Origin: Mustelus asterias
Lineage: Eukaryota
NCBI RefSeq assembly: GCF_964213995.1
Contig: NW_027590501.1
Coordinates: 124,001-188,000, forward strand
Length of the DNA: 64,000 nt
Reading direction: 5' to 3'
Position 1 is the first letter of the stretch; each line of letters begins with the position of its first letter. The notes beneath the pieces were generated by a model. It saw only the letters and a list, made by a program, of their open reading frames with translations. It was not told the DNA's origin and did no database searches. Of the stretch, positions 35,847-49,800 are shown one piece after another. A program made the translations under genes and the position numbers.

Positions 35847-36884
35847 TTATTTGTGAACTCGCTGGTGACTCATCAGGGTGGATGAGCGAGTGAATCTCTT
35901 CCCACACACGAAGCAGGTGAATGGTCTCTCCCCAGTGTGAATTCGCTGGTGTCTCTGCAGGGTGGCTGATTGAGTGAATCTTTTCTCACACTGCAAACAG
36001 ATGAATGGCTTCTCCCCAGTGTGAACCCGCTGGTGTGCAGTCAGTTGACATAATTGTCTAAACCCAGTCCCGCGGTGAGAGCACCTGAACGGTCTCTCGT
36101 CAGTGTGAACAAGCTGAAGGCGCATCAGGTCCACAGAACCTTTATAGCATTTCTCACAGTCAGCACATTTAAAAGGTCTCTCGTCAGTGTGAACTCGCTG
36201 GTGTTTCAGCAGAGTGGACGAATCGCTGAATCCCTTCCCACATTTGGAGCAGGTGAATGTTCTCTCCCCTGTGTGAACTCGATGGTGTTGTAGAAGCCCT
36301 GATGATCGAGTGAATCTCTTCCCACATTTGAAACAGATGAATGGCTTCTCCCCAGTGTGAATTCGCTGATGTGCAGTGAGTTCAGATGATTGTCTGAACC
36401 CAGTCTCGCAGTGAGAGCATCTGAAGGGTCTCTCGTCAGTGTGAACAAGCTGATGTCGCATTAGGTTCTGAGAACTTTTATAGCACTTCCCACAGTCCAG
36501 GCATTTAAATGGTCTCTCATCAGTGTGAACTTGCTGATGTTTCAGCAGAGTGGATGAATCAGTAAATCCCTTCCCACACTTGGAGCAGGTGAATGGCCTC
36601 TCCCCAGTGTGAACTCGGTGGTGTTGTTGCAGCCCAGATGATCGAGTGAATCCCTTCCCACACTCAGGACAGGTGAATGGCTTCTGCGCATTATGAACAC
36701 GCTGGTGCCTCAACAGGTTGGATGACCAAGTGAATCCCTTCGCACACTCAGGGCAGGTGAATGGCCTCTCCCCAGTGTGACAGGGCTGATGAGTTTCCAG
36801 CTCAGACAGGGATCTGAATCCCTGCTCACAGTCCCCAGATTTCCACGGTTTATCTACACTGTGAACATTGCTGTTTTCTTGCAT
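35847..36884 (-). CDS. C2H2 ZNF, 12 finger units (3 degenerate); exon interrupted upstream by ERV
   Basis: First host ATG (MQENSN) at 36884; the 5' part of the exon lies at 43453-43519 beyond the provirus. Confidence 0.85.
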
Positions 36885-36903
36885 GTTAAAAACCCGATGA
36901 TAT

Positions 36904-37730
36904 TGTTGTAGGGAAATATCCCTTACCAGTGCAGAATAGAAGTTGAGTCGCAAATCAAGGTTCAAAGCGTGTCTTTATTGTACAATTACTGGGATCCCAG
37001 GGAGACCCCCGTAGCCAGCTCAGAAACAGTGGCTTGGCCACGTTGATCTCAATTAAATCACATCAGCTCTGGATCTTTATAGGGATCCAAAATTCGCGCG
37101 GGAACATTTGATTATGCCTTTTTTTACACAATGTATAAAGTGGTCTGTCAGTTTCAAAAGTCCCTAGGAAGTTTCATGGATTAGCATTTGTATGGTGTGT
37201 GTTCGTGTTAATGGGATTACTTGGTCCTGCCCCGGTGTCTAAATGCGTTTCCCATTACTATCTCTATGTGTCTTCTTATTTAAATTGGTCCTATTGTTCC
37301 GTGTCTGTGTTTCCTGCTTGTGAGATTGAGTGTTAATGTCATCCTGTCCTGTTGGGTGTCTGGGGTATTTCATTCTTAACCTTTTATCCTTATCTCTTAG
37401 TTTATCAGATTTTTATGTCTGCCTTGGCCGAATTGGTAATATTTCAGTGATAGCTTGGTTTTGATAACCCACTCTCTGTCTCGTTTCATAGGGATCTTGA
37501 TCTTCCTTGGCCAGTTTAAAATGCAGCTATGCGCTGTTGCTAGGCAGATTAGGGATCTTCCGTAGTTTCTGAAATTCGTGAGTCTCTCAGCTGTGCAGGG
37601 GGAGACCCGATTGAATATCCATCCGGGGGTGCCCCTCTGCATTGTTGGCCCGTTATGAGTGGTGCCAATTAGTCCAATAAAAATATGTTTGATGATGCAA
37701 ATATGGTTTTCTGGAAAATTTCCTCCTTCA
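36904..37730 (-). repeat. 3' LTR
   Basis: Direct repeat of 42626-43452; minus-strand TATAAA at 37076-37081 and AATAAA at 36974-36979. Confidence 0.97.
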
Positions 37731-37742
37731 GTCCCTCCTCTC
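37731..37742 (-). other. Polypurine tract
   Basis: GAGAGGAGGGAC immediately before the LTR TG. Confidence 0.9.
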
Positions 37743-37785
37743 GTCCAAGGGGTGCCATTCATGGCTGACCCCCCATGGACGACCT

Positions 37786-38529
37786 TCAGAGGAACAGTGA
37801 TTTGTACAGCTGTTGTCCTTGCCGTTGTTCCTCCTCTTCTGGGTCGTTGTTAAGTTCTTGCATCTGGATACTGGCAGTGGGTAGCATTCTTGATGTAATA
37901 TTTGCACATATCACTTTAATACAGGTTAGGCCAAGGCAGAGTGTGAACAGGATGGCTACTACTAGGATTAATCCCTTCATAATATATGCTCCCCAAACTG
38001 TGTTAAACAGCCATCCTAACCACCCATCAGTCCCTGTTAACCCCTGTTTAAAGTTATCCAATTGCTTTTGTATCCCGGACATGGCTGCTGTTATGTTTAG
38101 TGTCTTGTCGTGTACGTATGTGATGCATTTTTCCTTGATGATGGTGCATACCCCCCCTTGTCTGGCTAGCTGATAGTCCACCGCATATCTCGTTTGTTGT
38201 GTGTATAGTCTGAGTTCTGCGAGTTCTTGGTCAATTGCGCCTAATGCTTGTAGGGTGTTGTTTCCTAAAATGGTCAGTCCACATATGAAGAAGTTCCTAT
38301 TACTGGCACTGATCACCCCTGCGGCGCCTCCCAGGGATAGTGTCCCCAGAAATCCATATCCTAAAGAAGACCCTAGTGTGACAGGGGCCTGCCAGTCGGA
38401 GCAAAATTCTGCGCTGATGGCCCTGGTCACTATGCGTTTTTGGACATGCCCTTCGCTTGGGCATGGAACCGTGAGAGGTCTGATTGTCCCTACGGAAAAG
38501 AACCTTGGAGGCCTGTCTGTGGCCGTCAT
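37786..38529 (-). CDS. env: ERV env C-terminal part (SU end and TM)
   Basis: KRIVTR cleavage site, Gly-rich fusion peptide, heptad repeat, immunosuppressive-domain-like QQTRYAVDYQLARQGGVC, CX6C, hydrophobic TM helix. Confidence 0.9.
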   Translation of the reverse strand: MTATDRPPRFFSVGTIRPLTVPCPSEGHVQKRIVTRAISAEFCSDWQAPVTLGSSLGYGFLGTLSLGGAAGVISASNRNFFICGLTILGNNTLQALGAIDQELAELRLYTQQTRYAVDYQLARQGGVCTIIKEKCITYVHDKTLNITAAMSGIQKQLDNFKQGLTGTDGWLGWLFNTVWGAYIMKGLILVVAILFTLCLGLTCIKVICANITSRMLPTASIQMQELNNDPEEEEQRQGQQLYKSLFL

Positions 38530-39257
38530 ATATACATTTTTAAATAAAACACGTACCCGTCTTTAACCCGATAACATGCATTACCCCGGTGTCGTTTGAC
38601 CGCATGGCCCCATCTTGTGGAACCTTCCCTCCCCCTGGACTGTCCACTTGATTGTACCTCTTGGTGAGAATCAAATGGATATGTCCCTGAGGCTGAGCTT
38701 ACGTGGGTGCTGTTGCACTTGCCACACATAAGCTGCCTACCCGCGGTGACTGCAATGCATTTTTGTTGCTTGCAGTCACAAGTGAAGTGTCCTTCCCGGA
38801 CCCGGCACTCCTGGAGAGCACAATGTGCCTCAGCGCACGAATCATTTTTAGGGACAAAGGCATGCACGCACCCCCATCCCTCTCCCTTAAAACATTGTGG
38901 GTAGTTCCCAAGTGTCTCCTCCGGTTGGGGTCCCGTCCCCCTTAGAATTCCCGGCTCAGTGAGCTCTACACACCTTCCTTGTATCCCTTGCTTAAAGTAC
39001 CCAATATGTTCTTTGCAGGGTGCCCCCGATGTGTCAATAGTGAATAACTCTTGTGGGAGCCACCCTGGTGTTGCGATGAATAGGGAGTTTACTGATCGCG
39101 CTGAGGGGTAACAAGCGGTCCTATTCCCATAGATCTGGATGTGTGTTTTCAGGAATAGGTTTCCTTCCATGATTGGTGGTTCTGCTCCCCTAACCCCCAT
39201 GTGTTGGAGTGTATTTACAATGGTCAGGGTTATTATCAGATATGTCCCTGTTCCCAT
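38526..39257 (-). CDS. env: ERV env N-terminal part (signal peptide and Cys-rich SU)
   Basis: MGTGTYLIITLTIVNTLQ signal-like start, many Cys, NDS/NST sequons; overlaps the TM ORF in the -1 frame. Confidence 0.85.
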   Translation of the reverse strand: MGTGTYLIITLTIVNTLQHMGVRGAEPPIMEGNLFLKTHIQIYGNRTACYPSARSVNSLFIATPGWLPQELFTIDTSGAPCKEHIGYFKQGIQGRCVELTEPGILRGTGPQPEETLGNYPQCFKGEGWGCVHAFVPKNDSCAEAHCALQECRVREGHFTCDCKQQKCIAVTAGRQLMCGKCNSTHVSSASGTYPFDSHQEVQSSGQSRGREGSTRWGHAVKRHRGNACYRVKDGYVFYLKMYI

Positions 39258-39414
39258 ATCGCTCTTTTTTTTTTTTTCAACAGTATTTTACAATTACAGT
39301 ATATACAGAAAATAAACAGGCAATTAAATTAAAAGTAGTTGGTTCCGACGTCTTGATAGTAGATCTGGTCCTGGTTCCTGTGGAAGTTGAATGAGCAAAA
39401 CGGTATCTTTTAGT

Positions 39415-39717
39415 TCATTTGTCCTCATATAGTTTCAATTGGGTCCAGTGTTTCCAGACCCCCTGTCCCCTTATATCTATACAGGCACAGGTATCTCCGC
39501 TAATAATGACCTCGTAAGGTCCGTGCCATCTTGGGGCAAATCCTGGTTTTGCAGGAAGCACTTTTGTTAATACCCGGCTCCCGGCTTTTGGGACTTCTGG
39601 TAATATTTCTGAGTCCCCCTCTGCGTCGACCTGTGCCTGATTAGAAATTACGGACCGGCGCATCCCCTTCAATTGGGTGCTAAGGTCTCGGATGTATTGT
39701 CGGATACATCCATTCAT
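39415..39717 (-). pseudogene. pol: Integrase C-terminal (GPY/F) remnant of pol
   Basis: G.RVL.K...PRWHGPYEVI...WKHWTQLK motif directly upstream of env. Confidence 0.85.
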
Positions 39718-40940
39718 TTGTATGTAGTCTTATCAAAAGACATCGCTTTCCCCATTAAAATCACATGCCATACAGCTCCGATCTTTATATGATGTACTCT
39801 TACATTATCTCTAATTTGATCATTTGTTTGCGTGCAAGCGCTACACCACAGTACTTCACAAAATAATTATGTCTTTATCAATGCCCAATATAGTATATGA
39901 ATATATCATACAAAGTTGGTTAAGGCTTTTCAGGATTTGATGTTATTCTTGTGTCTATATGGCAGTGCTATACTGTATAATAAAAATAATCAAGCGGCAG
40001 TTGTATCATACCACTTTACACATCGTACCCGTGATATCCAAACCCTTTTAATTTAAGCCGTTTCTTTTTTTAAACTGAGCTCCAGATCGAAACCCCCGCA
40101 CTCTAGGAAAAGTAACAGGCGCCGAATCAAAATCAAAGCAGGTACAATACATACCAGTTATTTGATTAGGAACATTTTGGTTTCTTAACTGGCTAGGTTT
40201 TAAGCTTTGCAGTGCTTTTATATTTGGCAAACCTTGAACCTTGATGGCTCATGAAATTCCGACGGCAGTACATAATTTTAAACTAGTTCAGAATACTAAA
40301 CTATCTGACGTTCGCAAATCGCGATATTCTGCGATTAATACTGTATTTCACTGACTTGATATACTTTAAACTAATTCATAGACCTCAGTCTTTTGTTCCT
40401 GCTTTTCTACCTTTCCACAAAATAACTTATTTTCTTCTCTTAACTCCTCAACTAACTCTTATAATTTCTACTTCAAGACAAAGGAAAGAGCACATGCTTC
40501 CTTCCAAGGTTTAAATCCTTTCTTAACATTAAAACAAACAACAACAAAGCATCCACGCAACCACTTTGTTTAAACACACACACACACACACATGGAAGCT
40601 TCCAAAAGTCATTCCACAGTACATCCTTTTTCATTCAAACTTATCATTTCAGACTGGGATGAGTGTAAAACATTCAAAGAGAATACAGAACATTGATTAA
40701 GACAATCGCTTTTATTCTTCTTTCTTCCAAACTGTAATTGACTCAAAGCAGAAGTAAATTCAAGAAATCCTATCACTTGAATCTTTACAGTTTTAACACT
40801 CTCCCAGCCCCCCTGAGGCTAAACCAAGGTGCAATGTACTGCACCCACTGCCTGTAGCAAACATTCCACAGGAACAAAGAGCTCCCTGCTCTCAATCTAA
40901 TTACAACAACAACCACCTACATTCGACAAGCTACCAGATC

Positions 40941-41483
40941 TCACAAACACACTGAAATACAAAAACTAAGATCTCTCCTATCCATCTGCTGCCTTTCCCC
41001 TGGCGTAAAAGGCTTATAGGTTGCCTTTGGTTGTGCTAACGTCCCTCCTCTCGTGACTGGCGCTAGATTATAATTGTCTATGTTTTCTTTTGATGCTGGA
41101 GTGGCTGTATGTTTCTGCACTGACTCGTATGGGCGCCGAGGGTCCGTTTCCTCTGATCTCTGCGTTATCTCCGCAGTGTGGTTTCTGTATTCTAATTCCC
41201 TCACTCTCTCCTGTAATACTTTAATTTGCTCTGTCTCTTTGTGTCTCTCCTCCATAGAGGCATTTACTTCCTCAATTAGTCCAGCTAACTGGGTCACTAA
41301 TATTACTCCCATTACTTTTGTTTTGTCCCGTTTAACTCCGTCTACCCACTTTCTTTGATCTTCTAAAGTTTGTGATGCGTTCCACCCGTTCCGTTTCATC
41401 TTTGCAACAATCGCTTCTCTGGCTAACAGATACTTCAAAATGAGAGCTACTGCAGTTTCTCCCTTAACAACGTGGTCTGCCAT
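40941..41483 (-). CDS. gag: Truncated gag-like ORF (N-terminal domain and coiled coil)
   Basis: First long ORF after the PBS and leader; ATG MADHVV at 41483; ends soon after YKPFTPGER (capsid-start-like); identity inferred from position. Confidence 0.65.
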   Translation of the reverse strand: MADHVVKGETAVALILKYLLAREAIVAKMKRNGWNASQTLEDQRKWVDGVKRDKTKVMGVILVTQLAGLIEEVNASMEERHKETEQIKVLQERVRELEYRNHTAEITQRSEETDPRRPYESVQKHTATPASKENIDNYNLAPVTRGGTLAQPKATYKPFTPGERQQMDRRDLSFCISVCL

Positions 41484-42601
41484 TTTTCTGTCTAGCAGTC
41501 CTGCAACCCCCGTATGCTGGCTGCTACAGTAAAAGTGCCTCAACTCTCTCCCTTATCTCCTGTCACTGATACTGCCCCAGCACCGTCTGTATTGCTGTAG
41601 GTTCTCGTAGTGAGGTTCCAGTGGGTCTCTTTCCCCTGGGCTCCCCCAACTATTCCTGACACCTCACGCTTGGACTATTTTGTGTTGTCTTATTGGGATG
41701 TGTGCTGGTTGTTTAGTGGGTTTGTCCGCCCCTGTTCCCAGCCCCTCTAAGTACAACGCCTCCCGCTCGGCCACCACCCCCACTAGCAGGGTTGATCCGT
41801 TACCCCAAAACCGGGTATCCTGCTATGGGCTGTGGTGTTCCCTACAGACGAACAAGGTTATCAAACTCCGCCCGGGTCCCTAATGGATCCTCCGTCGTCG
41901 TGTCTCTTGGTCAGGATGGATCGGGTCCCCTTTTCCTCAACACTTACACACATGTATTCTGTTATCAAAGCCCCTGTTATAGTTAGTAACTGTATCGACT
42001 CTGAGGTTGTTCGTCCCTTCAGAGTCAGTGTTGTTACCCGATTTACACTGTCCGTGCCTTGCACCCTGAGTGCCTGTGCCTCTTAGCGCCCGCTTCAAAA
42101 CCCAACCTTAGCGTGGGAGATTTCTCCTCTTAACGTCCAGTTTAGGGTAGGGCACCTTGAGTCAAGCACTCCCTTGTCCTATTGCCTTGGCACAGACAGC
42201 GGTTTCATTTACAATCCTGGGTTAGTTACACCAATTAGTTCTGCATGCGGTACTTATCTTTATATTAGTCTTAATTCCTGTTATCAAATAGCCCAAAACC
42301 TGTTATCTTTACCTCTGGTCCTTTACTCCTATTAAAGTTAAAAGTTACTTACCTTTTTCCACGCGGTCGTTCTGACCTGTACCTCTTTAGTGCGGACTTC
42401 TGTTTCAATTTAAAAACTTAGGCAAGATTATACAGTTCTACAAGACAACAATACTTAAAACAGACAAACCCTAACCCTTAAAGGTACCTCACTTTGAACG
42501 GAGACCTGCACTCGCCTTTGACTGCTCTGGATTTGTATCAGATTCGTTTAAATTTGATCCCGACTTTCAAACTGTGGCCATCAGTCAGAAGTCAGATATC
42601 A

Positions 42602-42622
42602 AATCCTGCCGTGACTACGCCA
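42602..42622 (-). other. Primer binding site, tRNA-Ser, with 2-nt insertion
   Basis: TGGCGTAGTC-AC-GGCAGGATT versus the tRNA-Ser(AGA/TGA) complement TGGCGTAGTCGGCAGGATT. Confidence 0.85.
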
Positions 42623-42625
42623 TTT

Positions 42626-43452
42626 TGTTGTAGGGAAATATCCCTTACCAGTGCAGAATAGAAGTTGAGTCGCAAATCAAGGTTCAAAGCGTGTCTTTAT
42701 TGTACAATTACTGGGATCCCAGGGAGACCCCCGTAGCCAGCTCAGAAACAGTGGCTTGGCCACGTTGATCTCAATTAAATCACATCAGCTCTGGATCTTT
42801 ATAGGGATCCAAAATTCGCGCGGGAACATTTGATTATGCCTTTTTTTACACAATGTATAAAGTGGTCTGTCAGTTTCAAAAGTCCCTAGGAAGTTTCATG
42901 GATTAGCATTTGTATGGTGTGTGTTCGTGTTAATGGGATTACTTGGTCCTGCCCCGGTGTCTAAATGCGTTTCCCATTACTATCTCTATGTGTCTTCTTA
43001 TTTAAATTGGTCCTATTGTTCCGTGTCTGTGTTTCCTGCTTGTGAGATTGAGTGTTAATGTCATCCTGTCCTGTTGGGTGTCTGGGGTATTTCATTCTTA
43101 ACCTTTTATCCTTATCTCTTAGTTTATCAGATTTTTATGTCTGCCTTGGCCGAATTGGTAATATTTCAGTGATAGCTTGGTTTTGATAACCCACTCTCTG
43201 TCTCGTTTCATAGGGATCTTGATCTTCCTTGGCCAGTTTAAAATGCAGCTATGCGCTGTTGCTAGGCAGATTAGGGATCTTCCGTAGTTTCTGAAATTCG
43301 TGAGTCTCTCAGCTGTGCAGGGGGAGACCCGATTGAATATCCATCCGGGGGTGCCCCTCTGCATTGTTGGCCCGTTATGAGTGGTGCCAATTAGTCCAAT
43401 AAAAATATGTTTGATGATGCAAATATGGTTTTCTGGAAAATTTCCTCCTTCA
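42626..43452 (-). repeat. 5' LTR
   Basis: 827 bp; TATAAA 42798-42803, AATAAA 42696-42701 (minus strand). Confidence 0.97.
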
Positions 43453-43689
43453 ATATTCAGACCCTGATGTGATGTTTGGTTTCAGTTTCCCTGACTGCAA
43501 ATCTTTCCCTTCTAACGCCCTGTGAAACTGATTTAAAACAGAAAAAAGGGAGTGAGAGAGAACTCACAAAAACAGAAAGGCAGGTTGTGAAACTGAGCTG
43601 GTTTTAGCGCCAATTTCCCACCCCCTCCCCGAATCCTTTGATTCCCTGAAAGATCTCTCCAGCTCTGGGCTAGAATTTTCCTCCATTTT

Positions 43690-46600
43690 AATCCTGGGAA
43701 AACTGCAGTTATTGTCACCGCTCTCTGCTACAAATTCTACCCATTGACTCCATCCCTCTCCTCGGAAACTGTCTGAGACTGAGCCAGACTGTTCACAACC
43801 AGAGCAAAATATTTCACCCAACCTGAGAATCTGACCACAAATCCACATCATTACCAAGACCAGTTCCACCTCAGTAACATCACCCAACTCCAGTCTCCTC
43901 TCAGTTCATCTGCTGCTGAAACCGTCACCCATTCCTTTGTTTTGAGTTGATTTGATTTATTATTGTCACATGCATTAGTATACAGTGAAAAGTATTGTTT
44001 CCTGCGTGCTATACAGACAAAGCATACCATTTATAGAGAAGGAAATGAGACTGTAGTGCTACAGTCATAGCTAGGGTGTAGAGAAAGATCAACTTAATGC
44101 AACGTAGGTCCATTCAAAAGTCTGATGGCAGCAGGGAAGAAGCTGTCCTCGAGTCGGTTGGTATGTGACCTCAGACTTTTGTATCTTTTTCCTGACGTAA
44201 GAAGGTGGAAGAGAGAATGTCCGGGGTGCATGGAGTCCTTAATTATACTGGCTGCTTTAGCAAGGCAGCAGGAAATGTAGACAGAGTCAATGGATGGGAG
44301 GCTGGTTTGAGTGATGGATTGGGCTACATTCACGACATTCTGTAGTTCCTTGCAGTCTTTGGGCCGAGCAGGAGCCTTACCAAGCTGATGCTAATGCTTT
44401 CTATGGTGCATCTGTAAAAGTTGGTGCGAGTCATAGCTAACATGCCAAATTTCATAAAGTCATAGAGGTTTACAGCATGGAAACAGGCCCTTCGGCCCAA
44501 CTTGTCCATGCTGCACTTTTTTTAAAAAACCCTAAGCTCGTCCCAATTGCTCACATTTGGCCCATATCCCTCTTTCCCCATCTTACCCTGTAACTGTCTA
44601 AACGTTTTTTAAAAGACAAAATTGTACCCACCTCTACTACTACCTCTGGCAGCTTGTTCCAGACACTTTGCCCCTCTGGATCCTTTTGTATCTCTCCCCT
44701 CTCACCTTAAACCCATGCCCTCAGGTTTTAGACTCCCCTACCTTTGGGAAAAGATATTGACTATCTAGCTCATCTATGCCTCTCATTATTTTATAGACCT
44801 CTATAAGATCACCCCTCAGCCTTCTATGCTCCAGAGAAAAAAAGTCCCAGTCTATCCAGCCTCTCCTTACAACTCAATCCATCAAGTCCCGGTAGCATCC
44901 CAGTAAATCTCTTCTGCACTCTCCTAGTTTAATAATATCCTTTCTATAATAGGGTGACCAGAACTGAACACAGTATTCCAAGTGTGGCCTTACCAATGTC
45001 TTGTACAACTTCAACAACTCCTGTATTCAATGTTCTGACCAATGAAACCAAGAATGCTGAATGCCTTCTTCACCACTCTGTCCACCTGTGACTCCACTGT
45101 CAATGAGCTATGAACCTGTACCCCTAAATCTCTTTGTTCTGTAACTCTCCCCAATGGCCTACCATTAACTGAGTAAGTCCTGCCCTGGTTCAATCTACCA
45201 AAATGCAATACGTCGCATTTATCTAAATTAAACTCCATCTGCCATTCGTCGGCTCACTGACCCAATTGATCAAGATCCCGTTGCAATCAGAGATAACCTT
45301 CTTCACTATCCACTATGCCACCAATCTTGGTGTCATCTGCAAACTTACTAACCATGCCTCCTATATTCTCATCCAAATCATTCATATAAATGACAAATAA
45401 CAGTGGACCCAGCACCGATCCCTGAGGCACTCCGCTGGTCACAGGTCTCCAGTTTGAAAAACAACCCTCGACAACTACCCTCTGGCTTCTGTCATCAAGC
45501 CAATTTTGTATCCATTTAGCTCCCTCACCCTGGATCCCGTGAGATTTTCCTTCATCTTCTGAGAAAGTAGAGATGTTGGTGGGCTTTCTTAACTATAGTG
45601 TTGACTTGGGGGGACCAGGACAGGTTGTTAATGATCTGGGCACCTGAAAACATGAAGCTTTCGACCATTTCTACTTCATCCCCGTTGATGTAGACAGGAC
45701 ACGTTCTCCACTATGTTTCCTTATGTCGATGGCAATCTCCTTCATTTCTGTTTACAATGAGGGGGAGATTATTGTTACCGCACCAGTTCACCAGATTCTC
45801 TATCTCATTCTTGTACTCTGTCTCGTCGTTGTTGGAGATACGACCCACTACGGTGGTGTCACCAGCAAACCTGAAAATCGAGTTGGAGGGAAATTTGGCC
45901 ACACAATCATAGGTGTATAAGGAGTATAGTAAGAGCTGAGAACACAGCCTTGTGGGGCATCGGTGTTGAGGATGATCGTGGAGGAGGTGTTGTTGCCTAT
46001 CCTTACTGATTGTGGTCTGTGGGTTAGGAAGTTCAGCATCTAGTCGCAGAGGGAGGAGCCGAGCCCAGGCCACGGAGTTTGGAGATGAGTTTCGTGGGAA
46101 TAATGATGTTGAAGGCTGAACTGTAGTCAATAAATAGGAGTCTGACATCGCTGTCTTTGTAATCTCGATGTTCCAGGGTTGAGTGCAGGGCCAGGGAATT
46201 GGCATCTGCTGTGGACTTGTTGGGCGGTAGGCGAACTGTATTGGATCCAGGCAGTCCGAGAGGCTAACCTTTTGAAGCACTTCATAATGATGGATGTTAG
46301 ACCCACCGGACGAGAGCCATTAAGGCACGCTGCTTGGCTTTTCTTTCGTACTGAGATGATGGTCATCTTCTTGAAGCAGATAGGGACCTCAGATTGTTGT
46401 AAAGAGAGGTTGATGATGTCTGCGAATAGCCCCACCAGCTGATCCATGCAGGATCTGAGTGCTTGTTACCATTAGACTTAATCATTCTAACACATCCCTG
46501 GCCGGTCTCCCTCACTCAACCTGTCTATTAACTTGAGGTCATCACAATTCTGCTGCCCACGTGTTTACTCATTCCAAATCTTGTTCACCCACCACCCCTG

Positions 46601-47030
46601 TGCTACAAAGGCTCCTGTTTATGAATCAACATTTTAAATTTCTCATCCTTGTTCTCAAGTACCTCCATGGTTTCACCCCTCCCTATCTCTGTAATCTCCT
46701 CTCGCCTCACAACCCTCCAATATCTCTGCATTCCTTTCATTCCGGCTTCCTCAGCATTCACAGTTTTAATCACTCCATCATACGTGTCCGCACTCCCAGT
46801 TACCAAGGCCATAATCTTTGGAATTTCCCCCTAAACTGCTCCCCCTCTGTATCATCCTTCCCCCCCCCCTTTAAGATACTCATTAAAACTACCTCTTTAA
46901 CCAAGCCTTTACCCATCCACCCTCATGTCTGCTCACATGACTCTATGTCAAATGTTGCTTTATAACACACCTGAGAAACGCCTCAGAATGCTCCAGTACA
47001 TGAAAGATGCTGTATAAATACACATTGTAA
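43690..47030. mobile_element. Nested LINEs: L2-like (+) containing Rex1-like (-, about 43940-46465) containing CR1 (-, about 44457-45545)
   Basis: Rex1-type RT motifs FADIINLSLQQSEVP...RPVGLTSIIMKCF, PQGCVLS; CR1 MEFNLDKCDVLHFGR; L2-like sequence resumes after 46465. Confidence 0.75.
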
Positions 47031-47174
47031 TTATTGATTTGGAGATGTATCACTGTCCCTTCATCATCACTGGGTGAATAGCCTGTAACTCTTGACCTAA
47101 AGGGGAGCACCTTCACCACATGGACTGCAGCTGTTCAAGAAGATAAAACATAATCTTCTCCACAGGTAATTTCA

Positions 47175-47719: not shown

Positions 47720-48180
47720 TGCCTCCAATCGAGGTGGCGGCTGCACATGCGCCCTGTTGCCCATTGCCCCCTATAAAGATGGCCACCGTCCTGCTGTCCA
47801 TTGCCCCCAATAAATATGGCGGTCACGCTGCCCATTGTTCTCGAAAGATGGAGGCTGCAAAATCGGTCAGGCAGGGCCTCGGGCGTCTTATTTGTGGTTT
47901 GAAGCTAATATCCGACGTTTATGAAAGCTCCGCTTCCTATACCGGGTGCTTATGAGTCCTCCCTTTTGACTCTCAGGCTCCATTTAACCTCACTCACCCG
48001 GTGTCTCCAATCAGTTTCTACTCTCCCTGCTGCTCCGACACCACCCCATCCGACCACTGCCTACACCGCACTGCGCATGCTCCAGTCAGAGAGGCACTGA
48101 GTCTGCGCAATGATCTCCAGTATTGAAGATAGGGTATCGTCACCCTCTCGGTGCACGCTGGGTAATGGCACCGCCATTGC
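47720..48180 (-). promoter_or_regulatory. Probable promoter / first exon of the ERV-interrupted ZNF
   Basis: CpG-rich, actgcgcatgctc motif, YY1-like aagatggc repeats, minus-strand donor cgg|gtgagt near 47997. Confidence 0.55.
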
Positions 48181-49109
48181 CACTTGATATTGTCAAATAC
48201 AAATACATCTTTTGTGGTCCATGATCATAATGACTGGCCTGGCCGAGAATGGCTTACTCCTGTTCCTATTTTCTATGAAAATATATTTAAACAGGCTTAT
48301 TTTAAATTAATTAACACCTTCCTTGAAATAGTGTGCACAATCATTTGTCAGTCTGGGAATTTAAACTTGCTCTTTCACTTTCAGTCAGGAACACGTCCCA
48401 GTTTCACACTAAACTTTGATTTGACAGCATGTTTCCAGCCTTCACCGTTGTTCAAAATTGTTGCAAACTCTCGGCAGCTGTGACGGTATTTGTAAAGACA
48501 GAGTCAATGTTTCCAGTCCAATATGACTCTTCAGTTCCAAAACATTAGCTCTGTTTCTGCAGAGATGCTACCAAACCTGCTTTGTTTTTATTTCCGATTT
48601 CCAGCATCTGTAATATTTTGATTTTCTTTCACAATTGTTCACCTGACTCGAAACATAGTTATAAAAGAGTCTTCTGTTCCATGTTTAGGAGCTCTGGACT
48701 ATAGAAAAGAGCAGTTGGGACACATTTCTTACACACCTCAGGATTAACCCACTTTGCTGTCAGTGAAGAGAGATGAGAAAGTCCAAAGTGCTGTTTGTCC
48801 CTCTCAGTGTGACCCTATGGCAGGAACAGACTGCAGTTCTGTTCCTGCTGTGTGAACCTCCCCCAGATTGCCCCTTCTGAGCTCCAGCCGGCAATGTTAA
48901 ACATTCAGCTGGGAAAGACGAACATCTGCAACTATGTATTCAAATATCACTGTTTTATTTCACATTTATTTAGAATATTAAACTCCAGTCCAGTTACAGG
49001 GATTATTAACATAATCAGAAACAAACTCCAAATATCAGAATGAACATAGTCCAGTCCTGAATGTGATTCACAGCAGCAGCAATAACAGCAGAATCCAGCC
49101 CCTGTAGTA

Positions 49110-49800
49110 ACTTATGAACTTGCTGGTGTGTCAGAATGTGAGGTAACCGAATGAATCTCTTCTCACATGGAGCAGGTGAACAGCCTGTGAATGTGTTTGT
49201 GTATCAGCAGATACATTTTGCATTTAAATCTCTGCTCACAGTCAGAAGTTTGAAAAAGTTCCTTATCAGTGTGAACAAGTTGATGTGCAGTGAAGTGGGA
49301 TGACTGAGTAAATCTCTTGCTAAACATGGAGCAAGTGAACAGCCTCTCCCAGAGTGAGTGCACTGGTGGACACTGAGTTCACATGTCCAGCTGAACCCAG
49401 TCCCATAGTGAGAGACTCTGGATGGTCTGCTGTCAGTGTGAACCTGCTGATAGCACATCAGATTCATAGAAATTTTAAAACATTTCCCACAATCCAGACA
49501 TTTGAAACACATTCCATCAGTGTGAACTCACTGGTGTGTTAACAAAACGAATGAATCAGTGAATTGCTTCCCACACATGGAGCAGGTGAATGACCTCTCC
49601 CTGGTGTGAACTCTCTGCTGTTGCTGCAGGATGGACAATCGCTTGAACCTCTCCCTGCACTGAGAGCAGATGAGTGGAGTGGAACGGACTGAATACACTG
49701 GTGAACCATCAGTGAATGTGGGTTTTTAAAGCTCCTGTCACAGTCTCAGCATTTAAATCCTCTCTCTTCAGTATGAACCCACTGGTGTGTGTGGAGACTG
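49110..49800 (-). pseudogene. Degenerate C2H2 ZNF pseudogene
   Basis: Finger remnants in several frames ([26 protein letters not shown]) with indels; family 3'UTR at 49000-49110. Confidence 0.85.

What the first reader, a model, noticed from the sequence alone, without database searches (positions are those of the whole stretch)
35847..43519. Young ERV inserted in sense inside a ZNF exon, decapitating it and placing an LTR promoter in front of the fingers
Seen: removing the provirus and one ATAT restores an open frame from the acceptor at 43519 ([31 protein letters not shown]...). Native transcripts now meet the 5' LTR AATAAA. The 3' LTR TATA (37076-37081) lies about 190 bp upstream of ATG 36884 with all 12 finger units downstream, and the LTR end is stop-free in that frame. 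Inference: either knockout of a candidate repressor by a retrovirus, or the ZNF is now expressed whenever this LTR family is active, a potential feedback sensor.
Basis: partly seen in the sequence, partly recalled or inferred. Interest (0 to 1): 0.75.

Follow-up and report, generated by a model that had tools for sequence, protein, structure and literature searches.

The report
Young retrovirus inside redundant zinc-finger gene
A very recent, defective retrovirus copy sits just in front of the start codon of one of 38 near-identical zinc-finger gene copies in a probable shark genome; it likely switches off that one spare copy by chance, and nothing seen shows that it works as a virus-sensing switch.

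Summary
The anatomy is real: a 6,549-bp sense provirus (36904-43452, identical 827-bp LTRs, ATAT duplication) splits a zinc-finger exon, and 37 other copies of the gene show the empty site. The interpretation mostly fails. The gene is probably not decapitated: the 82 nt before ATG 36884 behave as 5' UTR (predicted exon 1 has no open in-frame ATG), so the whole 345-aa frame lies downstream. The protein has no KRAB or other Pfam effector domain. It is one of 38 copies at 97-100% identity; 36 of 36 others examined are open with 10-11 fingers, while this copy alone has lost two zinc ligands (9 canonical fingers, not 12). The provirus is one of roughly 450 near-identical copies (no RT motif in 7 of 7 examined), with no sign of concentration at zinc-finger clusters; about 0.8 sense hits upstream of some ZNF start are expected by chance, 0.015-0.05 this close. 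LTR-driven expression is possible by geometry (classic promoter insertion) but unshown; read data were inconclusive. ERV-ZNF feedback is already proposed for mammals. The scan had no nearby note; on other DNA it noted finger-only shark ZNFs with non-coding first exons. Verdict: ordinary, interest 0.2.

The parts
47998..48070 (-). Predicted non-coding exon 1 of the ZNF gene (donor CGG|GTGAGT after 47998; 5' end not determined)
   Evidence: found in 9 of 13 fetched paralog stretches; in-frame TAG in this copy; no open in-frame ATG in 400 nt above the donor. Splicing to 43519 is inferred, not seen
43457..43519 (-). 5' part of the coding exon, after the acceptor; likely 5' UTR (the 'ALEGKDL...' frame)
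43453..43456 (-). Target-site duplication ATAT, upstream copy
42626..43452 (-). 5' LTR, 827 bp; AATAAA at 42696-42701
42603..42622 (-). Primer-binding site complementary to the 3' end of tRNA-Ser(AGA), with a 2-nt insert after 10 matching bases
42347..42355 (-). Full-consensus splice donor AAG|GTAAGT, likely the proviral major donor
   Evidence: 9 of 9 consensus positions; use not shown
40941..41483 (-). 180-aa frame, by position a probable gag remnant; no Pfam family above cut-off
39415..39729 (-). Remnant of the integrase C-terminus; the rest of pol is absent
   Evidence: IN_DBD_C E 0.038, MLVIN_C E 0.041, both below cut-off; no YXDD motif in the internal frames
37786..39287 (-). env, broken into two frames (38526-39287 and 37786-38562)
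   Evidence: TLV_coat E 3.3e-8; TM matches filovirus GP2, syncytin and MLV TM structures
37731..37742 (-). Polypurine tract
36904..37730 (-). 3' LTR, identical to the 5' LTR; TATAAA 37076-37081, AATAAA 36974-36979, donor-like CTG|GTAAGG 36921-36929
36900..36903 (-). Target-site duplication ATAT, downstream copy
35847..36884 (-). Whole ZNF reading frame, 345 aa, fingers only: 1 degenerate unit, 9 canonical fingers, 2 fingers broken by private changes (H256L at 36118, C271R at 36074)

Best explanation
A member of a very young, high-copy, RT-lacking ERV family landed in sense, likely by chance, in the probable 5' UTR of one of 38 near-identical finger-only ZNF copies, and likely silences only that spare copy. 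Shown: the insertion, its youth (0 of 827 LTR differences), the empty site in 37 other copies, the whole ORF below the provirus, two private zinc-ligand losses. Inferred: the native transcript (exon 1 spliced to 43519) would run into the 5' LTR and end at its poly(A) signal, about 6 kb short of the ORF; the loss would be buffered by the other copies, so the allele would drift. Any RNA from the 3' LTR or read-through past it would be a by-product and would encode a 9-finger protein with no effector domain.
For: 37 of 37 other copies empty; 36 of 36 examined open, 317-345 aa, 10-11 fingers. Family under purifying selection: of 72 variant alleles outside the window's two private ones, 32 are synonymous (21.7% expected) and 1 hits a ligand (11.3% expected; rough P 0.002), whereas 2 of 2 private changes of this copy hit ligands. 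773 exact LTR-start matches, about 450 elements by scaling from C1+C2; 0.25 per Mb on C1+C2, which hold 1 of 2,932 ZNF-motif matches, against 0.21 genome-wide, so no sign of ZNF targeting. Expected chance sense hits: 0.8 in the 4.5 kb above some ZNF start, 0.015-0.05 in the untranslated part of a coding exon. UTR reading: no open in-frame ATG above the exon-1 donor here or in 8 of 9 paralog stretches; the homologous exon start has in-frame stops in 4 of 4 other window ZNF genes where it was found; an NCBI-annotated basking-shark relative starts MEGKSSVHS, Met-to-Met with MQENSNVHS.
Against: No transcript of this copy was seen, so truncation is inferred. A hit this close to a ZNF start is a 1-5% event for this family alone (target sizes are my assumptions). 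The 27-codon segment is open in 32 of 36 close copies and stays in frame across a 6-nt deletion in two 87% paralogs; 1 of 9 paralog stretches (L108) has an open in-frame ATG in exon 1; an unseen coding exon in the 4.5-kb intron is not excluded. The best alignment to the basking-shark protein is one finger out of register (68%); the Met-to-Met one is weaker (39%). The order of ligand loss and insertion is unresolved (P about 0.15). Some of the 38 copies may be uncollapsed alleles.
Confidence: 0.7

Rival explanations
1. Promoter swap without function: the 3' LTR (or read-through from the 5' LTR) makes a translatable mRNA of the whole ZNF frame whenever the LTR is active, but it is an unselected by-product.
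For: Sense LTR; TATA 192 nt above ATG 36884; no ATG in the LTR below 37063; A at -3 of the ATG; whole ORF. Initiation in the downstream LTR is documented for ALV at c-myc (PMC3186009, passages).
Against: Own AATAAA about 100 nt below the TATA box and a donor-like site 23 nt before the LTR end (13 sites of 7 or more of 9 lie on the element, so that match alone is weak). The 5' LTR is intact; suppression of a downstream LTR by the upstream one is recalled, not from a call.
Confidence: 0.17
2. True decapitation: the ALEGK... segment codes and is fed by an unseen coding exon, so the insertion removes an N-terminal part.
For: Segment open in 32 of 36 close copies and in two 87% paralogs with a frame-keeping 6-nt deletion.
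Against: No open in-frame ATG at exon 1 here or in 8 of 9 paralog stretches; 4 copies have a 2-nt shorter segment with an open ORF (probably one event); stops in 4 of 4 other window genes; no Pfam family on the 42-aa start.
Confidence: 0.07
3. Selected feedback sensor: LTR activity switches on a ZNF that binds and dampens the same ERV family.
For: Geometry as above; such loops are proposed for human HERVs and KZFPs (PMC7577720, Discussion), and knock-down of fish ZNFs derepresses LTR elements (PMC10547256, passages).
Against: 1 of 38 copies carries the LTR; that copy is the most damaged in finger count of the 37 examined; no effector domain; the gene copies (4-22 differences in about 1,038 bp) are more diverged than the best-matching LTRs (0-2 in 826), which suggests that the array predates this burst; no binding evidence.
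Confidence: 0.05
4. Assembly chimera.
For: Unplaced 294-kb contig in a repetitive array; no junction-bridging contig among the 32 pieces listed of 397.
Against: Exact 4-bp duplication as in 6 of 6 other copies, TG...CA ends, and two LTR variants shared by both LTRs and by only one other element among the 30 LTR loci compared.
Confidence: 0.01

Closest known systems
Retroviral promoter insertion (ALV at c-myc; PMC3186009, passages read)
   Same: Sense provirus above an intact host reading frame, with the downstream LTR placed to start host transcripts.
   Different: Germline, not somatic; target is a redundant ZNF, not a proto-oncogene; no transcript shown.
ERV insertions in young mouse KZFP clusters (PMC12575710, passages; review PMC13709654, passages)
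   Same: Segmentally duplicated ZNF array with a new ERV in one duplicated block only (their Fig. 4d legend names such a MERVL-int case).
   Different: Probable shark; finger-only genes without KRAB; the ERV has not been copied along with the block; no enrichment of this family at ZNF arrays seen.
HERV-KZFP negative feedback loop (PMC7577720, outline and Discussion read)
   Same: Idea that ERV regulatory DNA beside ZNF genes ties their expression to ERV activity.
   Different: There it is many old, mostly enhancer-type elements and KRAB proteins with expression data; here one brand-new insertion, no KRAB, no expression or binding data.
Chondrichthyan ERVs (CmiERV; PMC4422223, abstract only)
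   Same: ERVs in cartilaginous fish.
   Different: [quoted passage not shown] Genus cannot be set without RT.

Membership tests
Endogenous retrovirus (provirus) | Paired LTRs with TG...CA ends and a short target-site duplication | tested here: met
   827-bp identical LTRs, ATAT duplication; 4-bp duplications in 6 of 6 other copies
Endogenous retrovirus (provirus) | tRNA primer-binding site and polypurine tract | tested here: met
   PBS matches tRNA-Ser(AGA) genes of the genome, with a 2-nt insert; purine tract 37731-37742
Endogenous retrovirus (provirus) | Retroviral env with gamma-type TM | tested here: met
   PF00429 E 3.3e-8, above cut-off; syncytin and MLV TM among the PDB matches; the gene is in two frames
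Autonomous ERV / named genus (gamma, epsilon) | Reverse transcriptase | tested here: not met
   No YXDD-like motif in the window copy or 6 of 6 others; only an integrase C-terminal remnant. Genus not assignable
KRAB-ZNF repressor | KRAB or other effector domain N-terminal to the fingers | tested here: not met
   Only zinc-finger-type and spurious Cys/His families among the best 25 of 31 listed; none on the 42-aa start of the empty copy; exon 1 appears non-coding
Promoter insertion | Sense LTR above an intact host ORF | tested here: met
Promoter insertion | LTR-initiated or read-through transcript of the host gene | tested here: inconclusive
ERV-ZNF feedback loop | The ZNF binds and represses the ERV that drives it | not testable with these tools
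   needs a binding or reporter assay
ERV-ZNF feedback loop | LTR-ZNF linkage retained and the ZNF kept intact | tested here: not met
   1 of 38 copies filled; two private ligand losses. The insertion may be too young for retention to show

The most novel reading that the evidence does not exclude
A promoter swap caught at birth: because these shark ZNF genes keep their whole reading frame in one exon behind a non-coding leader, an LTR landing there rewires an intact finger-only protein to ERV activity in one step. If this copy is expressed from the LTR and its fingers bind the family, it would be a newborn KRAB-free ERV feedback sensor in a cartilaginous fish, with 37 unrewired sister copies as built-in controls.
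Probability: 0.05. Interest if true: 0.65.

Novelty: new member of a known kind. Interest (0 to 1): 0.2.

Why it matters
As it stands, little: it is one recent insertion among hundreds, in one of dozens of spare gene copies. Its small value is as a natural experiment: a filled copy with two private marker variants beside near-identical empty copies lets allele-specific RNA data test directly whether a new LTR can take over a shark ZNF. It also marks a very recent ERV burst in a probable shark genome. If the feedback reading held, it would extend ERV-ZNF loops to KRAB-free vertebrate ZNFs.

Tried and rejected
No RNA holder was listed for the stretch; this says nothing on expression. Contigs of 4 runs laid on 43100-43800: no piece bridging the 5' junction among the 32 listed (365 not shown), one X1 contig running from the exon start into the ZNF as an empty site, no loose end joining the acceptor to exon 1 among the rows shown (35 not shown); contigs drop rare variants and the run kinds are not on record, so this is no evidence either way. 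Exact look-up of 10 ZNF proteins found 0 of 10. A protein search with residues 1-66 gave 7 hits, 1 from a shark. The env search gave 3 unnamed relatives. Timing ligand loss against the insertion was not significant (0.15). C333 as a plain allele: identity is 99.3-99.9% over about 19 kb upstream and 99.6% in the ORF, falls to 96-98% further down, and no match of 600 bp or more was found beyond the window's end, so a recent duplicate is more likely; not settled. ZNF targeting by this ERV: host flanks of the 30 LTR loci showed fingers only at this locus, plus one chance-like motif. Literature searches (listings only) showed no paper on an ERV in a shark ZNF gene; the library lacks most subscription papers. 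No supplements were read. Finger-target prediction was not attempted.
Full report
Observation. On the minus strand a 6,549-bp element occupies 36904-43452. Its LTRs (42626-43452, 36904-37730) are identical over 827 bp, end TG...CA, and are flanked by ATAT on both sides. A primer site at 42603-42622 matches tRNA-Ser(AGA) genes of the same genome apart from a 2-nt insert, and a purine tract precedes the 3' LTR. The window is G000:C469:124001-188000 of a 3.68-Gb genome; a shark is likely from the run labels and the basking-shark protein match.

The provirus. Inside lie a 180-aa frame without a Pfam match above cut-off (probable gag remnant, by position), an integrase C-terminal remnant (two weak matches, E about 0.04) and an env in two frames whose TM part matches PF00429 at E 3.3e-8. 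No YXDD-like motif occurs in this copy or in 6 of 6 others; all six have identical LTR pairs and 4-bp duplications. The genome holds 773 exact matches to the LTR start; on C1 and C2, 91 matches make 53 elements, which scales to about 450. It is a very young, apparently non-autonomous family; the genus cannot be set without RT.

The host gene is one of many. The upstream flank matches 38 places at 94-100% and the downstream flank the same 38 at 97-100% (40 candidates scored in each, so a lower bound). At all 37 other places the flanks abut with a 4-bp overlap: empty sites. Loci were fetched for 36 of the 37; all 36 have an open frame of 317-345 aa with 10-11 canonical fingers, the window copy has 9. 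H256L (36118) and C271R (36074) are absent from 34 of 34 distinct paralog sequences. Across the family, 32 of 72 other variant alleles are synonymous (21.7% expected) and 1 of 72 hits a zinc ligand (11.3% expected), so the family is constrained while this copy looks released; two private changes both hitting ligands has a neutral chance of 0.013 (alleles are not independent events and the test is after the fact). Whether decay came before the insertion is open (0.15). The closest copy, on C333, differs at 4 of 1,038 coding and 10 of 5,048 upstream bases, but the two contigs are not collinear beyond about 27 kb: probably a recent duplicate, possibly an allele.

Not decapitated. The only exon-1 candidate found ends at 47998 and was matched in 9 of 13 paralog stretches. 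Spliced to 43519, it puts a TAG in frame in this copy, and no open in-frame ATG lies above the donor here or in 8 of 9 paralog stretches; L108 is the exception. The homologous exon start carries in-frame stops in 4 of 4 other window ZNF genes where it was detected. An NCBI-annotated basking-shark relative begins MEGKSSVHS, Met-to-Met with MQENSNVHS, although its best alignment is one finger further in. Against this, the segment is open in 32 of 36 close copies and in two 87% paralogs across a 6-nt deletion, and no cDNA was seen. On balance the provirus sits in the 5' UTR, 19 nt before the native start, and the protein is fingers only. Earlier notes of this scan on other DNA say the same of shark ZNFs (unchecked notes); none concerns this place.

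Chance. A first-finger motif occurs 2,932 times. LTR density on C1+C2, which hold 1 of those matches, is 0.25 per Mb against 0.21 genome-wide: no sign of preference for ZNF arrays. With 450 elements, about 0.8 sense insertions are expected within 4.5 kb above some ZNF start, and 0.015-0.05 within the untranslated part of a coding exon (target sizes assumed). The tight placing is uncommon but not striking for a genome-wide scan.

How it likely works. Inferred: the native transcript enters the 5' LTR 67 nt after the acceptor and would end at AATAAA 42696-42701, about 6 kb before the ORF, so this copy likely makes no native mRNA. The 3' LTR could start a translatable RNA (no ATG in the LTR below 37063), as in ALV promoter insertion (PMC3186009, passages), but that RNA would hold its own AATAAA and a donor-like site. 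Read data did not decide: no RNA holder was on record, and contigs laid over the 5' junction showed no bridging piece among the 32 of 397 listed. With 37 other copies, loss or leak from this one is most likely neutral (0.7); unselected LTR-driven expression 0.17; true decapitation 0.07; selected feedback 0.05; artefact 0.01.

Comparison with what is known. New ERVs in single blocks of duplicated ZNF clusters are described in mice (PMC12575710, passages; PMC13709654, passages). ERV-driven ZNF expression as a feedback loop is proposed for humans (PMC7577720, outline and Discussion). Zebrafish ZNFs repress LTR elements (PMC10547256, passages; that text does not contain the word 'shark'). Shark ERVs are known (PMC4422223, abstract). 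Searches listed no paper on this event in a shark; no supplements were read. It has the layout of promoter insertion, with the transcript unproven; it fails the KRAB-ZNF test and lacks every functional mark of a feedback loop.

Verdict. Observation partly confirmed, interpretation partly supported; a new member of a known kind; interest 0.2. The boldest reading left, a newborn KRAB-free feedback sensor, has probability about 0.05 and would deserve 0.65.

Noticed in passing
G000, genome-wide: A very recent ERV burst: 773 exact LTR-start matches, mostly paired; LTR pairs identical in 7 of 7 elements compared; two size classes (about 6.55 and 6.9-7.0 kb; 4 of 6 copies have about 417 more bases at window position about 39706); no RT motif in any of the 7.
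   Followed up: partly
35847-36884 and L032-L090: A ZNF subfamily of 38 copies at 97-100% identity, mostly on small scaffolds, under purifying selection; fingers 2-5 look internally duplicated as fingers 6-9; a 317-aa variant lacks one finger (4 copies).
   Followed up: partly
window 35500-62800 against C333: A block of about 27 kb shared at 99% or more, with sharp falls in identity on both sides: recent duplication or gene conversion within the ZNF arrays.
   Followed up: partly
36921-36929 and 42643-42651: Donor-like CTG|GTAAGG in U5, 23 nt before the LTR end; if used, an LTR leader could splice to the acceptor of a neighbouring ZNF gene. 7 of 9 consensus only.
   Followed up: no
L097, L098, L103, L104: Four of 13 paralog stretches lose similarity near the SINE at window 47000-47170 and show no exon-1 match within the DNA fetched: rearranged or differently promoted copies.
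   Followed up: no
49100-49760 (-): A decayed zinc-finger unit with stops, about 1 kb above the predicted exon 1.
   Followed up: no
48070-48080 (-): GCATGCGCAGT just above exon 1, resembling an NRF1-type promoter motif (label recalled, not from a call).
   Followed up: no
43100-43452: Runs X1, X4 and X5 (33-67 million letters, kind not on record) cover the U3 part of the LTR; if they are RNA, the family is transcribed.
   Followed up: no
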